This document shows, in pieces, positions 2,438 to 13,463 of a stretch of 13,683 nt of DNA. Below the pieces are notes generated by a model. It did no database searches, was not told the origin of the DNA, and was given only the letters and a program-made list of their open reading frames with translations. The stretch is from Promethearchaeota archaeon. GTDB taxonomy: Archaea > Asgardarchaeota > Lokiarchaeia > Sigyniarchaeales > SOKP01. The translations under genes were made by a program, and so were the position numbers. The stretch is taken from positions 1-13,683 of the forward strand of contig JAEOTZ010000064.1 in NCBI GenBank assembly GCA_016839585.1. Direction: 5' to 3'. How positions within the stretch are numbered: the first letter of the stretch is position 1; every line of letters begins with the position of its first letter.

Positions 2438-2536
2438 CTAAAATTCCTTAAGGAATTCTTCTTTCATTTTCTCATAGAAATCTAATGATTCTGGATTTCT
2501 TGAGGCACCTCGGTTAGCTACAGCCATTCCATGAAC
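2438..2536 (-). pseudogene. Orphan diverged copy of the acetoacetate-CoA ligase 3' end
   Basis: Minus-strand translation VHGMAVANRGASRNPESLDFYEKMKEEFLKEF* matches the C-terminus IHRMAVANRGALRNPESLDFYEKIREELK* encoded at 3356-3445. Similarity stops upstream of about 2536. Confidence 0.9.
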
Positions 2537-2682: not shown

Positions 2683-2907
2683 ATGGCAAACATAACCCTT
2701 TCAATCCCAGAAGATTTAAAAAAAGAAATGGAAGAATTCCCTGAAATTAATTGGTCAGAAGTTGCTCGAACATCTATTAAACAAAAAATAGCCCATCTTA
2801 AATTTTTAAAAGGATTTCGGATGGATAGTGAAATTACTCCTGAAGATGCCCTAGATCTAGGAAAAGAAGTAAGTAAATTGTTAGCTGACCGTTATATGAG
2901 GGAATAA
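2683..2907 (+). CDS. vapB: Ribbon-helix-helix/CopG-like antitoxin (VapB-type)
   Basis: MANITLSIPEDLKKEMEEFPEINWSEVAR is a typical archaeal RHH antitoxin N-terminus; ends 2 bp before a PIN-domain gene. Confidence 0.8.
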   Translation: MANITLSIPEDLKKEMEEFPEINWSEVARTSIKQKIAHLKFLKGFRMDSEITPEDALDLGKEVSKLLADRYMRE

Positions 2908-2909
2908 TA

Positions 2910-3353
2910 TTGAAATTAGTAATTGATGCTAATATTATATTTGCAGCCTTAATAAAGGAAGGCCTAACTGCTGAGTTAATTATCAATGATGAGCTTCAAT
3001 TATTTGCCCCCGAATTTTTATTAGAAGAAATCTCCAAATATCAAGACCAAATTTTTGAAAAAACACACAGATCAAAAGAAGAATTTGAGATTTTTGTACA
3101 AATACTAAATGAATATATTACTTTTATCCCTCAGAAAAATATTAAACCCTTCCTTGAAAAAGCAAATTTATTTTCACCTGATCCTAAAGATTCTGTTTAT
3201 TTAGCACTAGCATTAGCACTTAAATCGGCAGTTTGGTCAAATGATAAAAAGTTAAAAGAAGAACAAGTTCAAGTAAAAGTGCTATCCACAGAAGATCTAA
3301 TAAATAAAACTAAAATACTTAAAAAGAATAAGAAAAAAATAAAAAGAAATTGA
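2910..3353 (+). CDS. vapC: PIN-domain toxin (VapC-type RNase)
   Basis: LVIDANII, EEI, DPKDSVYLALA and WSNDKKL acidic PIN motifs; TTG start. Confidence 0.9.
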   Translation: MKLVIDANIIFAALIKEGLTAELIINDELQLFAPEFLLEEISKYQDQIFEKTHRSKEEFEIFVQILNEYITFIPQKNIKPFLEKANLFSPDPKDSVYLALALALKSAVWSNDKKLKEEQVQVKVLSTEDLINKTKILKKNKKKIKRN

Positions 3354-3355
3354 AT

Positions 3356-5374
3356 CTATTTTAATTCTTCTCTTATTTTTTCGTAGAAATCAAGCGACTC
3401 AGGATTTCTCAGTGCACCTCTATTAGCTACAGCCATTCTGTGAATAATCTTAGTAACTGCTATTTCAACCTTTTTGTTGCTGAAAGTATAGGGTATGCCA
3501 TCTGAAGGTGTTTGTAATATTAGTTTAGGAACATGTCTAGGTGAAGTTTTCTCTCTTAATGTTTTTTTAATTTTTTCTTTTAATTCATTAGTTAATTTAT
3601 ATCCCTCATTCAATAAAACAAACATTATTATTCTAATATCTCCCTGCCATTTCTGCCCAATAACTAGTGAATCAGCTATCTCGGGAAGTTGTTCAATTAC
3701 ATTATAGATTTCAGCTGTTCCTATTCGTACACCACTTGGTTTAAGAACAGCATCAGATCTACCCCAGAATGTAACTCCTCCAGTATCGCTGTGAATAACG
3801 ATATAATCACCATGCCTCCATACATTTTTGCCAATTTCCTTAAAATGATCAAAGTAAGCAGCTTTATATTTAGTCATATTGTCATCATCACCCCAGAAAT
3901 ATACAGGCATAGATGGTGATGGGGCTTCGCAGACCAGCTCAGCTTGTTCATCTTTTACTGGTTCTGCAATATCATTATAGGATTCAACTTTCATTGCGAG
4001 TGCTCTACCTTGTAATTCACCAGAATAAACAGGTAAGATAGGAATTGCACCTGCAAAACATCCATTGATATCAGTACCGCCACTTATTGAGTTAAAGTAT
4101 AAATCTTTTTTAATTTCACGATAAACATATTCAAATCCTTCAGGAGATAAAGTAGATGCAGTTTGTGAGATTTCTCTAAGTGAACTTAAATCGTATTTCT
4201 TGGCAGGCTTAAGATCAAGACCCATGAGATAATGAATATAAGCAGCGCTAGTTCCAAATATGGAAATTTTATGTTTTTCTATCAATTCAAAAAATCTAAG
4301 AGGATCAGGATAAAGGGGATTGCCATCATATAAAAAGATGGTTGCACCTACTGCTAATGCACTAATCAACCAATTCCACATTTTGGCTGGTATAAGGATA
4401 TCTTATACCATCATCCATGAGGGAGCAGTGATATAGTTCAGTACATCGCTCCTTTTAACATCAGTAGAAAGGATAAGCTCCTTTAGATGGTTTATAAGAA
4501 CTCCTCCAGCGCTCTGTACCATGCTTTTTGGCTTTCCTGTCGTTCCCGAGGAGAACATTACATATATAGGATGGTCGAATGGTAATTGCTCAAATTCAAG
4601 TGGAGGATTCTCATCCTTCGAGATAAAGTCCTCCCAATTGACGGCTTTAGGGATTCCTGATACATCACATTTTCCGTCTGAAATATAAGATACCACCACT
4701 ACTTTTTCTATGGAAGGGAGGGCATCAACGACCTCTTTTGCATTATCTCGAATATCAAATATTTTATCTCGATAAAAATATCCATCTACAGTAAAGAGCA
4801 CTTTTGGCTCAATTTGACCAAATCTATCAATTACTGCACTTGGTTGGAGCTCTGCTCCGCAAGATGCCCAAATTGCACCAATAGTCGCTCCCGCAAGCAT
4901 TGCTACGGGCGTCTCAATTAAGTTAGGAATATATGAAACAACTCTATCTCCAACTTTAACCCCTGCTTCCTTAAGAGATTTAGCTAAACGAGCTACGGTT
5001 TTATTTAATTCTGCATAAGTCATTGTTTTGGATACTTTAGTCTCACCTTGAAAGTCGAAAGCTAATTGATCGTCTTTATACTTCAGAAGGTTCTCCGCAA
5101 AATTGAGAAGACTTCCTTCAAACCATTTTGCCCCAGGAAAATGATTGAGATCATCAATAACTCTATAATATTTCTTGGAACAAATTATACCAGAAAACTC
5201 CCACATAGCTTCCCAAAAATCTGGGATCTCTTCAACTGACCATTTATATAACTCTTTCCCACCTTGAATATTTATTCCGTATTTATCATTAACAAAGTTA
5301 ATAAACCGTGTAATCTCTGTATTTTTTATCCATTCTTCTAAGGGTTCCCAGAGTTTTTTTCTATCATCGCTCAT
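3356..5374 (-). CDS. Acetoacetate-CoA ligase (acetoacetyl-CoA synthetase), two exons: complement(join(3356..4381,4412..5374)), 662 aa
   Basis: LNFAENLL, FSSGTTGKPK, SISGGTD, WRHGD and GRSDAVLKPSGVRIGTAEIY motifs. The two track ORFs are in the same frame, and removing 30 nt rebuilds the family motif SWMMWNW. Confidence 0.92.
4382..4411 (-). other. 30-nt BHB micro-intron in the acetoacetate-CoA ligase mRNA
   Basis: Sense strand: CCUCA UGGA UG^A UGGUAUAAG AUAUC CUUAUACCA GCCA AA^A UGUGG. Perfect 9-bp stem, 3 of 4 central-helix pairs, two 3-nt bulges; contains an in-frame UAA. Confidence 0.85.
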
Positions 5375-5637: not shown

Positions 5638-7431
5638 TTATTTAAAATGCATTTTTTTTCTCTCTAAGCTATCTCTATAATTTTCAAGCATTTCTCGCAT
5701 TAAATCCATCCCTAGATAAATATTGTAACCAACACCACCCCATTCACTATCAGTACGCCAGATTTTGTATGTTATTTTAAAATACCTTCTAACTTGGTTT
5801 ATAAAATTAATGCTTCCTGATGTTATTACAGTTGAGCCCACTTTTCCATCACCATCATAGTACCCTAAAATAAAAGCTAAATATAATTCTCTTGAAGCTA
5901 ATTTTGGCAATTCTATAGATTTAGATTTTTTCTTTCCAACAATGAAACCATGTTTAATTAAATTTTTAGCAAACTCATCACTAACAAACCGAATTCTCAC
6001 ATAATCAGTTATTTCTCCATCTCTTCTAATTTCAGTTTCCTTATGCTCAAGATTAAAACCTATAGCTCTGGCAAATTTATCTAATAAATCTTTCTCATCA
6101 TCTTTATGCAATTCAACTCCAAATCTTAAATATTTGTCATGCTTGGAAAGCCAACCTTCTGCGAATAACCATCCTAACCAATAAGCTTTTTCTTTAGTAT
6201 CAATATATTCAAAATAGTCAATTTTTAAGTTTGGATGCCAGCTGTAGATACCATGAAGTGACTTTTTTAGATTATTAGAATTTTTATATTTATTCAATAG
6301 ATTAATGATTTCTCTTGGAACTCTAGCTAAATTTTTTTTGATATTAGATTCATATTCTTCAATTGTTTCTATTGAAATTAAATAATTTGAATTTTTCTTT
6401 ATTTGGTTCCTCTTTTTTCTAATATGAGAATTTGACTGTCCCAAAATGAGACTTAGTTGCTCATCTGTTAATTGACCTCGCCATAAATTAGTTTCTGAAA
6501 CATTTTTAGCAAGAACACCTTTTAAATCATTTAAAAAGCTTAATGTACTATATTCATTTGTGATTACCGTTAAAAACTCATTAGTTTTTAAAGCTTCTAT
6601 ATCAGATCTAGTAAATTTTTTGGTAAGGTTTTCCTTCCAGAATTCAAGATAAGCGGAGAACCTGTCAAAAGCGGATATCCTTTTATTAGATGAAAGTCCA
6701 AGTAAGCATTTACCTGTGTCTAAATTTAAAATCCTATCATAAAAATCTTTCACTTGGGATAATGGGATATTTTGTTTCTCTCCTATTTTTAATAATTCCA
6801 TTTCTACATTTGAAGAAAATTCGAGCCATTTAATTAACATATTCCTCAGTTCTGGAGAGAGATTTAAAATTTTTTGTTTATTAACAAACACCTCAGAATG
6901 CGCCCGGAGGTGCTTAAGTAGCCTTGTATATTGTAAAGTAATTTCATCAATACCTCTCTTTATCGCATTAAATACTTCTTCTTTTTTTCTCTCAATTTTT
7001 ATACTTAAATCATCCTTGAGAATCTTCAGCTGTTTCTTTGTAATTTGTTTTAAATACGATTTTGAAAGAGAATCCATGTAAGATGAAATGATAGAAGCAC
7101 CCCTTCCAATTGTAATACAATAGATCCAACTGTTAATAAACGTATTTAATTCTTGGGGGTATTTCTCCTTAATTTGGCTCAATAACACCTTAGGAGGGAG
7201 CCCCGCTTTATCAAATAAACATGCTAATGCACCATCAACAATTTCCCCTATTCGTTCATCAATATACACTAAGGGAAGGTGGTGTTGTTTGCATTTAGGG
7301 TATTTTCCAAACCCAAAAAATCCAAGTTTTAAAGGTTTTACTCTTTTCATCATATCACAACCTAATTGAGGACAAATAGCAATCATATCCTCATTTGTGG
7401 TTTTCCGAGATACTTTAGTATATTCTACCAT
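5638..7431 (-). CDS. Protein with an N-terminal Cys/His Zn-binding motif and a C-terminal two-motif LAGLIDADG homing-endonuclease-like domain
   Basis: AYWLGWLFAEG and AFILGYYDGDG motifs about 100 aa apart, followed by ITSGSINFINQV; N-terminal CPQLGC...CKQH. Confidence 0.8.
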   Translation of the reverse strand: MVEYTKVSRKTTNEDMIAICPQLGCDMMKRVKPLKLGFFGFGKYPKCKQHHLPLVYIDERIGEIVDGALACLFDKAGLPPKVLLSQIKEKYPQELNTFINSWIYCITIGRGASIISSYMDSLSKSYLKQITKKQLKILKDDLSIKIERKKEEVFNAIKRGIDEITLQYTRLLKHLRAHSEVFVNKQKILNLSPELRNMLIKWLEFSSNVEMELLKIGEKQNIPLSQVKDFYDRILNLDTGKCLLGLSSNKRISAFDRFSAYLEFWKENLTKKFTRSDIEALKTNEFLTVITNEYSTLSFLNDLKGVLAKNVSETNLWRGQLTDEQLSLILGQSNSHIRKKRNQIKKNSNYLISIETIEEYESNIKKNLARVPREIINLLNKYKNSNNLKKSLHGIYSWHPNLKIDYFEYIDTKEKAYWLGWLFAEGWLSKHDKYLRFGVELHKDDEKDLLDKFARAIGFNLEHKETEIRRDGEITDYVRIRFVSDEFAKNLIKHGFIVGKKKSKSIELPKLASRELYLAFILGYYDGDGKVGSTVITSGSINFINQVRRYFKITYKIWRTDSEWGGVGYNIYLGMDLMREMLENYRDSLERKKMHFK

Positions 7432-8360: not shown

Positions 8361-8651
8361 ATGTATCAAGAAATAGTTCCTCTATTAAAATGTCCTAATT
8401 GCAATAAACCATTACATCTTGTAGATTCAGTATTAGAAGCCGGTGAAATAGTACAGGGAAATTTAAAATGTAGTTGAGAAGAGACTTGGGAGATAAGAGA
8501 AGGGATTTTAGATTTCAGCGTAGAAAAACAGGAAAGTGTGAACAGGTGGTGTGAATTAACTAAAGAGATCACATTTGAAGAATTAGATGAGATGATTTTG
8601 AGTAAAAGTGTATTTACGTCTAAACTCAACATATTCACAAATTTTTGCTAA
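8361..8651 (+). pseudogene. Truncated Trm112-like Zn-ribbon N-terminus (as seen in methyltransferase fusions) with an in-frame TGA
   Basis: MYQEIVPLLKCPNCNKPLHL...GEIVQGNLKCS*EETWEIREGILDF. TGA at 8475-8477; the frame then runs into the 3' end of the convergent ACD gene. Confidence 0.65.
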
Positions 8652-10085
8652 AGCATTAACTGGGCGATCCCATAATCTAAAGAGAATTACACCATTGTTC
8701 CTTAATCTTTTAGACCAAGGAGTGTTAAAATTCATAGGGCTTATATGTAATATTGGTACCGAATACTTTTCTGAATTTTTGACTGTTGGCTTAACTAATT
8801 TATCAGCTAAGGAATCAATAACTTCTTCAGGTTGATGCTGAAATTCAGCATGTTTAGCAATCTCTTCATATGATAAATAATCATCCATAACATCCTGAAA
8901 CCCAACAACCCCATATTGAATGATGGCATCGACTTCGCCTGATTTCATTAATAATTCAGGCAGAGTAATATAGAAATACGGAAGATCCATATCAAAAGTA
9001 CAATCTATAGGATTTTTAAAACTTGCTGTTTGAGGTAAAATTTTCTTTAACTCATCTTGAAGTCCTTCAGAAAGTTCTGGAACTACTAAACCATGCTTTT
9101 CAGCATTATTAGCAACCATTGCTCCTGGACCTCCAGAATTTGTTATGATCCCTAATCGATTACCTTTAGGCTGGATGCCCCTTGATAAAATTAACGCAAT
9201 ATCTAAAAATTCTTGAACATAATCTGTTCTGATAACCCCAGCTTCTTTAAATATTGCTTCAAACATCCTTGAATCACCTGCTAGTGCTCCGGTATGACTT
9301 TGTAAAGCTCGATTTCCTGCTTTAGAACCACCTACATATATCGCAATAATAGGTTTTTTGGGTGTAATTTCTCTTGCTAATTCTAAAAATCTTTTTCCTC
9401 GTTTTAGTTCTTCAACATAGAGTCCTATGATCTCTGTATATGGATCATCTTTATAATATTCTAAGCAATCAACGATATCAATATTAGCTTCATTCCCAAC
9501 TGATAAAGATCTACCCAATCCTAAATCTAAATTTATTGGATCATACCAAATATGGCATGAAAGTGTACCACTTTGCGAGCCAATTGAAAATTTACTCCTT
9601 TCAAGGTTTTCCCAAATAAAGATATTGAAGGATTTATTTTCTTTTTCTGGTCCATACCAGTTATTAAAAACACCTAAACAATTTGGTCCAATAAATCTAA
9701 TTCCATATTCTGTAGCAATCTCATTGATTTCTTCTGTTAAGGTATTTTTGCGATCTCCAACTAATTCACGAAAACCTCCAGAAATTAAAACTATCCTTTT
9801 GACTCCTTTTACTCCACACTCCTTAAAAATATGAGGGACTACTTTAGCGGGGAGGACGATGACTACGAGATCGGGAATCTCCGGAACGTTAGCAATAGAT
9901 TTATAAGCTTTAAATCCCATCACTGTCTGTAATTTTAAGTGTATAGGGTAGACCTTTCCATCATATCCTGACTTAATTAAATTCATAATTTGAAGGGCAG
10001 CTAAGGAATTACCTTTATTATTAGCTCCATAAATCGCAATGCTTTTAGGATTTAGAAATTCATGCAGGAAATGATGTTCACTCAT
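8583..10085 (-). CDS. ADP-forming acetate/acyl-CoA ligase alpha subunit (CoA-binding protein)
   Basis: NPKSIAIYGA, RFIGPNCLG, SQSG, SVGNEA, phospho-His motif SHTGALAG, ITNSGGPG and NPID motifs. Confidence 0.93.
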   Translation of the reverse strand: MSEHHFLHEFLNPKSIAIYGANNKGNSLAALQIMNLIKSGYDGKVYPIHLKLQTVMGFKAYKSIANVPEIPDLVVIVLPAKVVPHIFKECGVKGVKRIVLISGGFRELVGDRKNTLTEEINEIATEYGIRFIGPNCLGVFNNWYGPEKENKSFNIFIWENLERSKFSIGSQSGTLSCHIWYDPINLDLGLGRSLSVGNEANIDIVDCLEYYKDDPYTEIIGLYVEELKRGKRFLELAREITPKKPIIAIYVGGSKAGNRALQSHTGALAGDSRMFEAIFKEAGVIRTDYVQEFLDIALILSRGIQPKGNRLGIITNSGGPGAMVANNAEKHGLVVPELSEGLQDELKKILPQTASFKNPIDCTFDMDLPYFYITLPELLMKSGEVDAIIQYGVVGFQDVMDDYLSYEEIAKHAEFQHQPEEVIDSLADKLVKPTVKNSEKYSVPILHISPMNFNTPWSKRLRNNGVILFRLWDRPVNALAKICEYVEFRRKYTFTQNHLI

Positions 10086-10811: not shown

Positions 10812-12067
10812 ATGACCAAAATATTTGAAGAAATCCGCATTCTTGATTGCTCACAGAATTAAAGCATATCGCTTTTTAATGAGTAAAATTCATAAGCGGA
10901 CCTTGGGCGGGTATATTTTTTGCAGATCAAGGGGCTGAAGTAATTAAGGTAGAAATTTGAATGCATATCGTATTCATACTATAACCTCCGCCATTTGGAG
11001 AAAGTTTTCGATACTTTATTTTATATGATAAAACCATGTTTCCCTTATTTTCTATATTAAATAGAGGAAAAAAGTCAATTTCTTTAGATTTAAGAAAAGA
11101 GGAAGCTCAAGAAGTTTTCAAGAAATTAGTGGAAAGATCAGATGTAGTAATAGAAAATTTTGTAAGAGGTACGATGGAAAAGTGGGGTATTGGGTATGAT
11201 GTATTAAAAAACATTAATTCAAAATTAATATATGCCAAAATTTCTGGATATGGTAATGAGGGTTTAGAAGAATACACCAACAAAACAGCTTTCGATATTA
11301 TTATTCAAGCAGAGGCAGGAATCTTAAATGCTCTAGGATTTAAAGAAGGACCTCCGAGACTTCCTATTGCAGATTATACAGCAGGTCATATCGCGGCTAT
11401 TGGGATTAGCCAAGCACTTTATTATAGAGAAAAAACAGGTATTGGGCAATTTATTGATATTTCTATGCATGATATCATGTTTGCTATCAATGTTAGAGCT
11501 CAAGCAAAAGAATTTATACCTTTAGCATCCAAAATTGATGTAGGAGGTAAATTTTTACCAGTTTATAATCAATACAAAACAAAAGATGGTAAAAAAATTG
11601 TATTTACAACTCTAACTGAAAACCAATGGATAAGACTATGCGAAAATGTATTGAAGAAACCAGATTTACTAAAAGATAATAGATTTGATAATATAATTAA
11701 GCGTTTTTCTTATGTAGATGAATTAGATAAGATTATAGAAGAATGGACAACAACTGTAACAAGAGAAGAAGCTATAAAACAACTTAATGAATTCAGAATT
11801 CCATGTGGAAAAACCCTAACCATTAATGAAGTTCATAATCATCCAAACCTAAGGGCAAGGGGGATGTTATGTGATCAATTTGATTTTACAAAATGGGGTG
11901 TTGAAAAAGCAACAATTCCCAACCGATTAATCAATTTCTCCGAAACAAAAGGTTCTGTTAATGTTCCAGGTCCGGAATTTGGTGTTCATAATGAAGAGAT
12001 TTATTGTGGTTTATTAGGGTATAAAAAAGAAGATTTAAAGAGATGGAAGCGTGAGAAAATAATATAA
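10812..12067 (+). CDS. Family III (CaiB/BaiF) CoA-transferase, three exons: join(10812..10854,10887..10954,10985..12067), 397 aa
   Basis: Spliced N-terminus MTKIFEEIRILDCSQFISGPWAGIFFADQGAEVIKVEPPPFGE matches the family pattern. NRGKKSISLDL, DVVIENF and catalytic PIADY follow; GAGG RBS at 10801. Confidence 0.92.
10855..10886 (+). other. 32-nt BHB micro-intron 1 of the CoA-transferase gene
   Basis: UGAUU GCUC AC^A GAAUUAAAGC AUAUC GCUUUUUAAU GAGU AA^A AUUCA. Central helix GCUC/GAGU; excision corrects the frameshift and removes the stop. Confidence 0.8.
10955..10984 (+). other. 30-nt BHB micro-intron 2 of the CoA-transferase gene
   Basis: AG GUAG AA^A UUUGAAUGC AUAUC GUAUUCAUA CUAU AA^C CU. 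Central helix GUAG/CUAU; contains in-frame UGA and UAA; excision gives KVE|PPP. Confidence 0.85.
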
Positions 12068-12932: not shown

Positions 12933-13442
12933 CTATGTCCATTTCTTTTTTAAATCTGAAGCTGTTAATTCCCTTACTTTATTAATAGCAAATATCACAT
13001 ACTTATAGCATTGCTGTTCCCATTTTTTATTCTCAATATATTTATTCGCAGAATCTAAATCACTAAAATCTATTCCACATAGTTCATAACAAGTAGTTGA
13101 ACCGAATTCTTTTTCGAAGTAATGCACAAATTTAGCCGCTGTTTGATATGCCTCCAAATTTTGGGCTAATTTTTTCTGCCCTCCAACTATTATGCCAATT
13201 GCAGCACAACCTCCACAAACAGCTCCACAAGGGCCTTTCCAACCTTTTAATGATTTGAAACCACCAAAACCTCCGGCTAGTGGGACTGCAAGATTATGAA
13301 AATAAAAATTATCCACTCCCAGAACTTCAAGGATATTTGTTAGAGTAAGTGCTGCACAGTTTGTTTCCATTTCTAGTTTCGGTAAAATTTCTTCTAAGTT
13401 TTTAATTTTTTCATCAAATCGTAAATTAATATCTTTAACCAT
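12933..13442 (-). CDS. C-GCAxxG-C-C family putative redox protein
   Basis: NCA, GGFGG, PCGAVCGG, FGSTTCYEL and QC motifs. GAGGTGA RBS (13448-13454) favours the ATG at 13442. Confidence 0.88.
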   Translation of the reverse strand: MVKDINLRFDEKIKNLEEILPKLEMETNCAALTLTNILEVLGVDNFYFHNLAVPLAGGFGGFKSLKGWKGPCGAVCGGCAAIGIIVGGQKKLAQNLEAYQTAAKFVHYFEKEFGSTTCYELCGIDFSDLDSANKYIENKKWEQQCYKYVIFAINKVRELTASDLKKKWT

Positions 13443-13463
13443 CCAAATCACCTCTAGAAATAA

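What the first reader, a model, noticed from the sequence alone, without database searches (positions are those of the whole stretch)
4376..4423. Acetoacetate-CoA ligase is split exactly inside the WMMWNW motif by a 30-nt hairpin intron
The 323-aa and 341-aa ORFs are in frame. The insert has a perfect stem (TGGTATAAG/CTTATACCA) and a TAA stop. BHB cuts at UG^A and AA^A give TCA TGG ATG ATG TGG AAT TGG (SWMMWNW). The central helix has one A-G mismatch (relaxed BHB), which could indicate a tolerant endonuclease. No other lesions are visible in the gene.
Basis: partly seen in the sequence, partly recalled or inferred. Interest (0 to 1): 0.88.

Follow-up and report, generated by a model that had tools for sequence, protein, structure and literature searches.

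The report
Mobile mini-intron in Asgard ligase gene
A fatty-acid-activating enzyme gene of an Asgard (Loki-type) archaeon is broken by a 30-base insert shaped like the introns that archaea cut out of tRNAs; comparison with about 100 related genes indicates that it is spliced out of the messenger RNA and spreads between genomes together with a neighbouring DNA-cutting enzyme gene, whereas the papers I could search show such splicing inside a coding sequence only for the gene cbf5.

Summary
A 30-nt insert (4411-4382, minus strand) with an in-frame UAA splits the acetoacetate-CoA ligase gene of a Promethearchaeota archaeon between the two Met codons of WMMWNW. Of four equivalent registers, only the bulge-helix-bulge (BHB) one forms a central helix.

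The insert sits at the same site in 23 of 102 related alleles from 8 genera. Its stem shows compensatory changes, and both exons stay under purifying selection (dN/dS 0.06-0.08). The genome encodes a two-subunit splicing endonuclease with the broad-specificity loop lysine, and RtcB. Best reading: an EndA/RtcB-spliced mRNA intron (0.85). No RNA data could be obtained.

The adjacent ORF 7431-5638 encodes a two-motif LAGLIDADG endonuclease. All 11 loci of its close clade lie beside this ligase gene, and all 9 that show the site carry the intron. This points to collaborative homing, although cutting at the site is only inferred.

Two further BHB inserts interrupt a CoA-transferase gene in this window. 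The scan has reported both patterns before on other Asgard and DPANN DNA.

The parts
4412..5374 (-). 5' exon of acetoacetate-CoA ligase (codons 1-321, ending in S-W-M)
   Evidence: dN/dS 0.08 among intron-bearing alleles
4382..4411 (-). 30-nt BHB mini-intron: A, 9-bp stem with 5-nt loop, 4-nt central-helix strand, AA
4388..4410 (-). intron hairpin, 4410-4402 paired with 4396-4388
   Evidence: z -4.7; 5 of 9 pairs have changes on both sides, 96% of cells paired
4403..4405 (-). in-frame UAA inside the 5' arm of the hairpin, invariant in all 27 copies seen
4414..4417 (-). exon strand of the central helix (UGGA); pairs with 4387-4384 (GCCA); A-G mismatch
   Evidence: three paired positions invariant; the mismatched one varies and gives a perfect helix in G102
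4376..4423 (-). whole BHB including the exon-exon helix (4419-4418 with 4380-4379; 4422-4421 with 4377-4376)
   Evidence: present in 22 of 23 alleles
4343..4427 (-). possible long-range exon helix, 4427-4421 with 4349-4343 (stronger in relatives than here)
   Evidence: 6-7 of 7 pairs in 21 of 23 intron-bearing versus 24 of 78 intron-less alleles; confounded with co-conversion
3356..4381 (-). 3' exon of acetoacetate-CoA ligase (starts M-W-N-W, 341 codons)
   Evidence: 4WD1 residues 319-654; dN/dS 0.055
5638..7431 (-). free-standing two-motif LAGLIDADG endonuclease gene (597 aa; nuclease part about 6540-5638; acidic residues E425 and D528 at the catalytic positions), here fused to a 290-aa N-terminal domain
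   Evidence: dN/dS 0.11-0.29 within its clade

Best explanation
The insert is a tRNA-type (relaxed BHB) intron in an mRNA. After transcription, the two-subunit EndA cuts after the second base of each 3-nt bulge (inferred). RtcB then joins the exons and restores WMMWNW and a 662-aa acetoacetate-CoA ligase (inferred); unspliced RNA stops at the UAA. At the DNA level the intron sits in the middle of the gene's most conserved stretch. It is spread between alleles by gene conversion, most likely started by the neighbouring free-standing LAGLIDADG endonuclease, which would cut intron-less alleles while the intron protects its own allele (collaborative homing). Shown here: geometry, covariation, selection on both exons, presence of the enzymes, patchy distribution, shared flanks and linkage to the nuclease. 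Inferred: splicing (about 0.85), nuclease-driven spread (about 0.7) and a cut at the intron site itself (about 0.55).
For: Only the BHB register has a central helix, in all 23 alleles. Covariation exceeds 500 of 500 shuffles and all slid controls. G153 has three compensated pairs, and G102 has a perfect central helix. dN/dS is 0.080 and 0.055 in the two exons of intron-bearing alleles, against 0.087 and 0.061 in intron-less ones. Two EndA paralogues and RtcB are in the genome, and the catalytic subunit keeps the broad-specificity loop with the K44 equivalent (PMC3241643). Two more BHB inserts with 4 of 4 central pairs interrupt the CoA-transferase in this window; one is 32 nt and frameshifting, so it must be removed. 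Mobility: 17 state changes for 20 intron-bearing alleles on a tree without the flanks, no fewer than with shuffled labels (233/1000), against 7 changes on the tree of the flanks alone (0/1000). Synonymous identity is raised only from about codon -6 to +15. G024 and G096 step from 68-84% to 96-98% identity at the intron, on the side of the nuclease. The nuclease clade at 60% identity or more occurs at 5 genomic and 6 metagenomic loci, all beside this ligase. All 9 that show the site carry the intron, against 23 of 98 alleles overall; none of 91 more distant LAGLIDADG loci showed the ligase in the DNA fetched.
Against: The central helix is imperfect in 22 of 23 alleles, and three pairs alone arise in 33% of shuffles. 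The BHB form lies 2-14 kcal/mol above the minimum-energy fold. G081 lacks the exon helix. All 27 copies keep exactly 30 nt and the UAA, which splicing does not require. Most intron-bearing alleles have no intact nuclease beside them (5 of 23), and two intron-less alleles carry nuclease remnants. The nuclease lies about 1 kb from the site and could cut elsewhere in the gene. The 9 linked loci are not independent (perhaps 5-6 events). Flank homogeneity could partly reflect selection for an exon helix.
Confidence: 0.8

Rival explanations
1. The gene is split into two proteins. Ribosomes stop at the UAA and re-initiate at the AUG 21 nt further on, and the two halves assemble into an enzyme. The hairpin only protects the DNA or tunes the coupling.
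For: The UAA is invariant in 27 copies and the 3' exon starts with AUG. Purifying selection on both halves fits this reading too.
Against: The spacer never changes length. The intron's first A and the last five bases, which include the three that pair with the exon, are invariant, while the one unpaired central base varies. The break falls inside a conserved motif of the large N-terminal domain. No Shine-Dalgarno-like run precedes the AUG. The neighbouring frameshifting insert sits at codon 15, where a two-protein reading makes no sense.
Confidence: 0.07
2. Ribosomal bypassing as in T4 gene 60: the ribosome takes off at an AUG, skips the hairpin and lands on the AUG of the 3' exon. In T4 such an insert also travels with a homing endonuclease (MobA).
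For: AUG codons flank the insert; there is a stop codon inside a hairpin, a constant length and an adjacent nuclease gene (10.1101/2022.08.31.505936).
Against: Bypassing needs a stop or hungry codon directly after a take-off codon that matches the landing codon. Here a variable sense codon (GTA, ATA, GCA, GTT, GTG, GCT) lies between the AUG and the UAA, and it has no matching landing codon. In G153 the first insert codon is ATA, which removes the match but keeps the BHB.
Confidence: 0.05
3. It is a spliced intron, but the nuclease is an independent passenger that targets the end of the ligase gene or another site, and the patchy pattern comes from ordinary recombination plus repeated intron loss.
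For: Duplicated 3'-end fragments of the ligase near many loci suggest an insertion hot spot there. Some intron-less alleles carry the flank haplotype of intron-bearing ones (L097, L068), as loss would leave.
Against: 9 of 9 informative nuclease loci are intron-positive. The link holds although the nuclease lies downstream in relatives and upstream here. The identity step in G024/G096 is at the intron, not at the gene end.
Confidence: 0.25
4. Pseudogene, transposon footprint or assembly error.
For: The insert is bounded by a 3-nt ATG repeat.
Against: The same insert occurs in 22 genomes of 8 genera and 4 metagenome contigs. dN/dS equals that of intact alleles. It has no other copy in the genome within 7 mismatches, and this is the genome's only close copy of the ligase.
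Confidence: 0.02
5. Stop-codon read-through that yields a ligase with a 10-residue insertion.
For: The insert is in frame and of constant length.
Against: The encoded residues vary freely (16 different peptides in 23 alleles), variation follows base pairing and not codon position, and UAA is the genome's ordinary stop.
Confidence: 0.02

Closest known systems
cbf5 pre-mRNA intron of Crenarchaeota (Watanabe 2002; Yoshinari 2006; Yokobori 2009, PMC2738675)
   Same: Short (16-44 nt) ORF-less intron in a coding sequence, at a conserved motif, with a relaxed BHB; host has a hetero-oligomeric EndA; presence is patchy.
   Different: Different gene and phylum. cbf5 splicing is shown by cDNA and in vitro cleavage, this one is not. 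cbf5 introns are described as having no nuclease, whereas this one is linked to a free-standing LAGLIDADG gene and shows signs of recent horizontal spread. This genome has several such introns.
Collaborative homing in phages (free-standing endonuclease plus nuclease-less group I intron in T3/T7-like phages and a cyanophage; T4 mobE with the nrdB intron; PMC10448857, PMC2790892)
   Same: Free-standing nuclease gene within 2 kb of an ORF-less intron in a conserved gene; co-inheritance and polar co-conversion.
   Different: Cellular archaeal chromosome; a 30-nt intron that needs host protein enzymes in place of a self-splicing group I intron; LAGLIDADG family; cleavage not shown.
T4 gene 60 bypass insert with MobA (10.1101/2022.08.31.505936)
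   Same: Small stop-containing hairpin insert at invariant codons, travelling with a homing endonuclease.
   Different: No stop directly after a matched take-off codon and no mini-SD; BHB geometry instead, so removal is most likely at the RNA level.
Asgard tRNA introns (10.64898/2026.10.13.758758) and the Haloferax HVO_1309 5' UTR intron (PMC7714728)
   Same: BHB boundaries, repeated gains in Asgard lineages, EndA substrates outside the anticodon loop.
   Different: Those lie in tRNAs or an untranslated region. The preprint found no general route of arrival and does not mention mRNA introns.
Archaeal rRNA BHB introns encoding LAGLIDADG endonucleases (I-DmoI, I-Tsp061I)
   Same: BHB intron together with a LAGLIDADG nuclease; fold and profile matches to 2DCH and I-DmoI.
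   Different: There the nuclease is inside the intron and the host gene is rRNA; here it is outside, about 1 kb away, and the host is an mRNA.

Membership tests
Archaeal BHB (EndA-spliced) intron | Two 3-nt bulges on opposite strands whose cut sites give the exon junction | tested here: met
   Cuts at UG^A and AA^A remove 4411-4382 and restore the frame
Archaeal BHB (EndA-spliced) intron | Canonical 4-bp central helix | tested here: not met
   3 of 4 pairs in 22 alleles and 4 of 4 only in G102; it belongs to the relaxed class, not to canonical hBHBh'
Archaeal BHB (EndA-spliced) intron | Flanking exon (h) and intron (h') helices | tested here: met
   h' 9 bp with covariation; h in 22 of 23 alleles
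Archaeal BHB (EndA-spliced) intron | Host has a broad-specificity EndA and an RNA ligase | tested here: met
   Two EndA paralogues, loop lysine aligned to K44, RtcB; specificity inferred from sequence
Archaeal BHB (EndA-spliced) intron | Excision from RNA in vivo or cleavage in vitro | not testable with these tools
LAGLIDADG homing endonuclease (monomeric) | Two LAGLIDADG helices with acidic catalytic residues and the family fold | tested here: met
   Motifs LGWLFAEG and LGYYDGDG; model pLDDT 90; the best 50 Foldseek matches are all LAGLIDADG proteins, at modest TM-scores of 0.3-0.45
Collaborative homing | Nuclease gene outside the intron, close by, co-inherited with it | tested here: met
   9 of 9 informative loci; about 1.0-1.2 kb away
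Collaborative homing | Co-conversion of flanking exon sequence | tested here: met
   partly confounded by a possible exon helix
Collaborative homing | Nuclease cuts the intron-less allele at the intron insertion site | not testable with these tools
   Indirect only: the site is the most conserved 18-26 nt window of the gene, and this genome has no intact copy within 1 mismatch
Gene 60-type translational bypass | Matched take-off and landing codons with a stop or hungry codon directly after take-off | tested here: not met
   A variable sense codon intervenes; G153 lacks the matched AUG
Acetoacetate-CoA ligase (TIGR01217/PRK03584) | Full-length match to the family model | tested here: met
   The halves cover the model without gap or overlap; 358 + 423 bits against a cut-off of 521; activity not tested

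The most novel reading that the evidence does not exclude
In Loki-type Asgard archaea, tRNA-type mini-introns are a routine, spreading class of mRNA introns. They act as protective inserts in homing-endonuclease target sites, are carried between alleles by free-standing LAGLIDADG nucleases, and are tolerated because the broad-specificity EndA and RtcB remove them from ordinary metabolic mRNAs.
Probability: 0.55. Interest if true: 0.88.

Novelty: new variant of a known kind. Interest (0 to 1): 0.77.

Why it matters
In the papers I could search, EndA splicing inside an archaeal coding sequence is shown only for cbf5, and how BHB introns arrive is described as open (PMC2738675; 10.64898/2026.10.13.758758). 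This locus offers an intron, its empty site, a candidate nuclease with intact catalytic residues and the splicing enzymes, all testable in vitro. If confirmed, the closest prokaryotic relatives of eukaryotes splice ordinary mRNAs with tRNA-splicing enzymes, and one route of intron gain becomes concrete. In practice, such genes are mis-annotated as two ORFs or as pseudogenes in Asgard genomes.

Tried and rejected
2. Genome-wide BHB scans. The loose scan gave 20,424 hits and 273 frame-joining candidates, mostly AT-rich noise. The strict scan gave 23 hits against 14 in a reversed control, with this intron ranked second by energy. It missed the CoA-transferase inserts, so I give no genome-wide count.
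3. A tRNA-intron census with a lowered ARAGORN threshold was swamped by false positives. The default run lists 30 tRNAs, many with introns.
4. Attempts to locate the pfk, E2 and uS3 inserts named in earlier notes by coordinates did not succeed, and the 31-nt candidate on C25 did not translate as recognisable uS3. These are not used as evidence.
5. Folding the nuclease from a single sequence failed (pLDDT 36); it was repeated with an alignment.
6. The first long-range-helix count had an indexing error; it was corrected.
7. A MITE or repeat family was rejected: the insert has no second copy in the genome.
8. An alternative 28-nt BHB register was rejected because it shifts the frame (worked out by hand).
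9. The 'most conserved window' result could be circular, because alleles were extracted by that motif. However, the protein-found loci that reach the site all had it.

Full report
What is in the sequence. The window is contig C53 of a 3.45-Mb, 29% GC genome whose relatives are Promethearchaeota (Lokiarchaeota) MAGs. ORFs 5374-4403 and 4381-3356 on the minus strand are in one frame. They cover the acetoacetate-CoA ligase models end to end, positions 4-320 and 320-654. The only internal stop is the TAA at 4405-4403, and deleting 30 nt gives a 662-aa protein with SWMMWNW. An ATG repeat permits four deletion registers. Only 4411-4382 gives a central helix (3 of 4 pairs), a 9-bp intron stem, an exon helix and an A as third base of both bulges. 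The hairpin has z = -4.7. The full geometry, given the hairpin, arises in 0.5% of random placements, but three central pairs alone arise in 33%. The minimum-energy fold leaves the central helix open.

Relatives. A pattern search of 135 genomes of the family found an insert at this site in 22 genomes of 8 genera, 23 copies, all 30 nt. The empty site occurred in 74 genomes. After merging all loci, 23 distinct alleles carry it and 79 do not, so no orthologue has a natural 10-aa insertion. In the alignment, 5 of 9 stem pairs show changes on both sides and 96% of stem cells pair; the covariation measures exceed the shuffles (0-3 of 500) and all slid controls. The loop varies freely. The three paired central positions never vary, while the mismatched one does and becomes the perfect complement in G102. 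Both exons are open wherever the contig allows, with median dN/dS 0.080 and 0.055 against 0.087 and 0.061 in intron-less alleles; this genome against its intron-less sister gives 0.07. A dead gene or an assembly error is therefore very unlikely.

Splicing machinery. The genome encodes two EndA paralogues and RtcB. One paralogue aligns along its length to the catalytic subunit of Aeropyrum EndA, including the loop with K44 and R46; that loop confers broad substrate specificity (PMC3241643). The other lacks the catalytic histidine by inspection, which fits a two-subunit enzyme. Following a lead from note e1-5589093, I checked two more inserts in this window. Inserts 10855-10886 (32 nt, frameshifting) and 10955-10984 (30 nt) have 4 of 4 central pairs, and removing both gives a 397-aa CoA-transferase. 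Of 13 same-genus orthologues with sequence there, 3 share the first insert and 4 the second, with some length variation; the rest are uninterrupted. A frameshifting insert at codon 15 cannot be read through or give two useful proteins, which supports excision as the general mechanism here.

Mobility. Intron-bearing alleles are scattered over the ligase tree, with near-identical sisters differing in state. Parsimony needs 17 changes on a tree without the flanks, like shuffled labels (233 of 1000 as low). It needs 7 changes on a tree of the flanking 72 nt (0 of 1000), 13 on the 3' exon tree (2 of 1000) and 16 on the 5' exon tree. Synonymous identity among intron-bearing alleles is raised only from about codon -6 to +15. 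Part of this could be selection for a 7-bp long-range exon helix, which I could not separate from co-conversion. Sister pairs that differ in state diverge mainly in the first 90-180 nt after the site, for example 78% against 90-98% elsewhere. G024 holds two divergent ligase copies with identical introns.

The nuclease. ORF 7431-5638, directly upstream, ends in a domain with two LAGLIDADG motifs whose acidic catalytic positions are intact. A profile of it matches I-AniI, I-DmoI and I-Tsp061I. A model with pLDDT 90 retrieves only LAGLIDADG structures among its best 50 matches, at modest TM-scores. The family is common in these genomes, but the clade at 69-75% identity occurs at only four other loci, each directly after the stop codon of an intron-bearing ligase gene. 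That is 5 of 23 intron-bearing against 0 of 75 intron-less alleles (Fisher p = 0.0005, overstated because the loci are related). As a fresh test I searched metagenomes. All six hits at 60% identity or more lie beside the ligase, all four that include the site carry the intron, and none of the 65 distant hits showed the ligase. G024 and G096 step from 68-84% to 96-98% identity exactly at the intron, towards their shared nuclease. In this genome, where the nuclease is upstream, the 3' flank resembles the intron-less sister (91%) and the 5' side is more divergent (70-82%), which is suggestive only. The clade has dN/dS 0.11-0.29. Remnants lie beside two intron-bearing and two intron-less alleles, as a cycle of invasion and decay would leave. 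The insertion site is the most conserved 18-26 nt window of the gene, being built from Trp and Met codons, the kind of target that homing endonucleases are known to favour (own knowledge).

Mechanism and rivals. The most likely reading is that EndA and RtcB remove the insert from the mRNA, while the free-standing nuclease spreads intron and nuclease by cutting intron-less alleles. Gene 60-type bypassing fails its defining test: a variable sense codon separates the AUG from the stop, and G153 lacks the matched AUG yet keeps the BHB. A two-protein split is not excluded, but it does not explain the fixed spacer and the invariant pairing bases. One point stays unexplained: all 27 copies keep exactly 30 nt and the UAA. 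Selection to stop translation of unspliced RNA would account for the stop.

Comparison with what is known. Published EndA substrates in mRNA are the crenarchaeal cbf5 intron (16-44 nt, relaxed motif) and a Haloferax 5' UTR intron (PMC2738675, PMC7714728). A 2026 preprint documents heavy tRNA-intron gain in Asgard archaea, finds no general arrival route and does not treat mRNAs. Collaborative homing is described for phage group I introns, with co-conversion up to about 2 kb (PMC10448857, PMC2790892). My literature searches found no paper on Asgard coding-sequence BHB introns or on their pairing with free-standing nucleases; the library lacks most subscription journals. The element works like a cbf5-type intron and meets the relaxed but not the canonical BHB definition. 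Earlier notes of this scan report similar introns and nuclease-intron pairs at other genes in Asgard and DPANN genomes. I reached the nuclease link at this locus before reading those on homing, apart from one line on carB, and I treat them as leads, not support.

Verdict. A real, conserved, mobile mini-intron; a new variant of a known kind; interest 0.77.

Noticed in passing
window 10855-10886 and 10955-10984 (+); gene 10812-12067: Two further BHB inserts (32 and 30 nt, central helix 4 of 4) split a family III CoA-transferase; removal gives 397 aa. They are patchy among same-genus orthologues and vary in length.
   Followed up: yes
window 4401-4397 and the loops of the two CoA-transferase inserts: All three inserts in this window have the loop ATATC, although the loop varies among relatives' copies; a 25-nt candidate on contig C8:33610 contains it too.
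   Followed up: partly
window 2454-2535 (-): A 79%-identical duplicate of the ligase 3' end lies about 0.8 kb downstream, beyond a PIN-domain toxin-antitoxin-like pair (2683-3353). Similar 3'-end fragments occur near the gene in many relatives, suggesting an insertion hot spot.
   Followed up: partly
window 7431-6541 and 8078-7425 (-): The N-terminal 290 aa of the nuclease ORF and the overlapping 217-aa upstream ORF have paralogous pairs on contigs C63 and C33 without the nuclease domain attached; no Pfam match. The nuclease seems to have fused to a mobile two-gene module.
   Followed up: partly
G000 contigs C33:5803-7866, C75:2957-5692, C67:6413-6762: Three more LAGLIDADG genes of the wider family, one of them frameshifted; the C33 copy lies near an RFC-like clamp-loader gene that appears broken into pieces.
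   Followed up: no
L039 (G081): Intron-bearing allele with an intron-less-type 5' flank (AGT serine codon), so it lacks the exon helix; probably a recombinant with a breakpoint next to the site.
   Followed up: partly
L097 (G120), L068 (G071), L098, L153: Intron-less alleles with the 3' flank haplotype of intron-bearing ones, possibly precise intron loss.
   Followed up: no
L225, L226, L228: Metagenomic members of the nuclease clade with a stop codon in the N-terminal part of the match, possibly decaying or starting later.
   Followed up: partly
G000 contigs C72 (+148), C86 (-59799), C16 (-464): Strong 27-30 nt BHB elements, two of them directly after a GGGTTC tRNA T-arm sequence, so probably tRNA introns of the same size as the mRNA intron.
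   Followed up: no
window 12933-13451 (-): C-GCAxxG-C-C family redox protein (PF09719); 8583-10085 is an ADP-forming acyl-CoA synthetase alpha subunit and 1565-2398 an enoyl-CoA hydratase, so the contig is a fatty-acid/CoA metabolism region.
   Followed up: no
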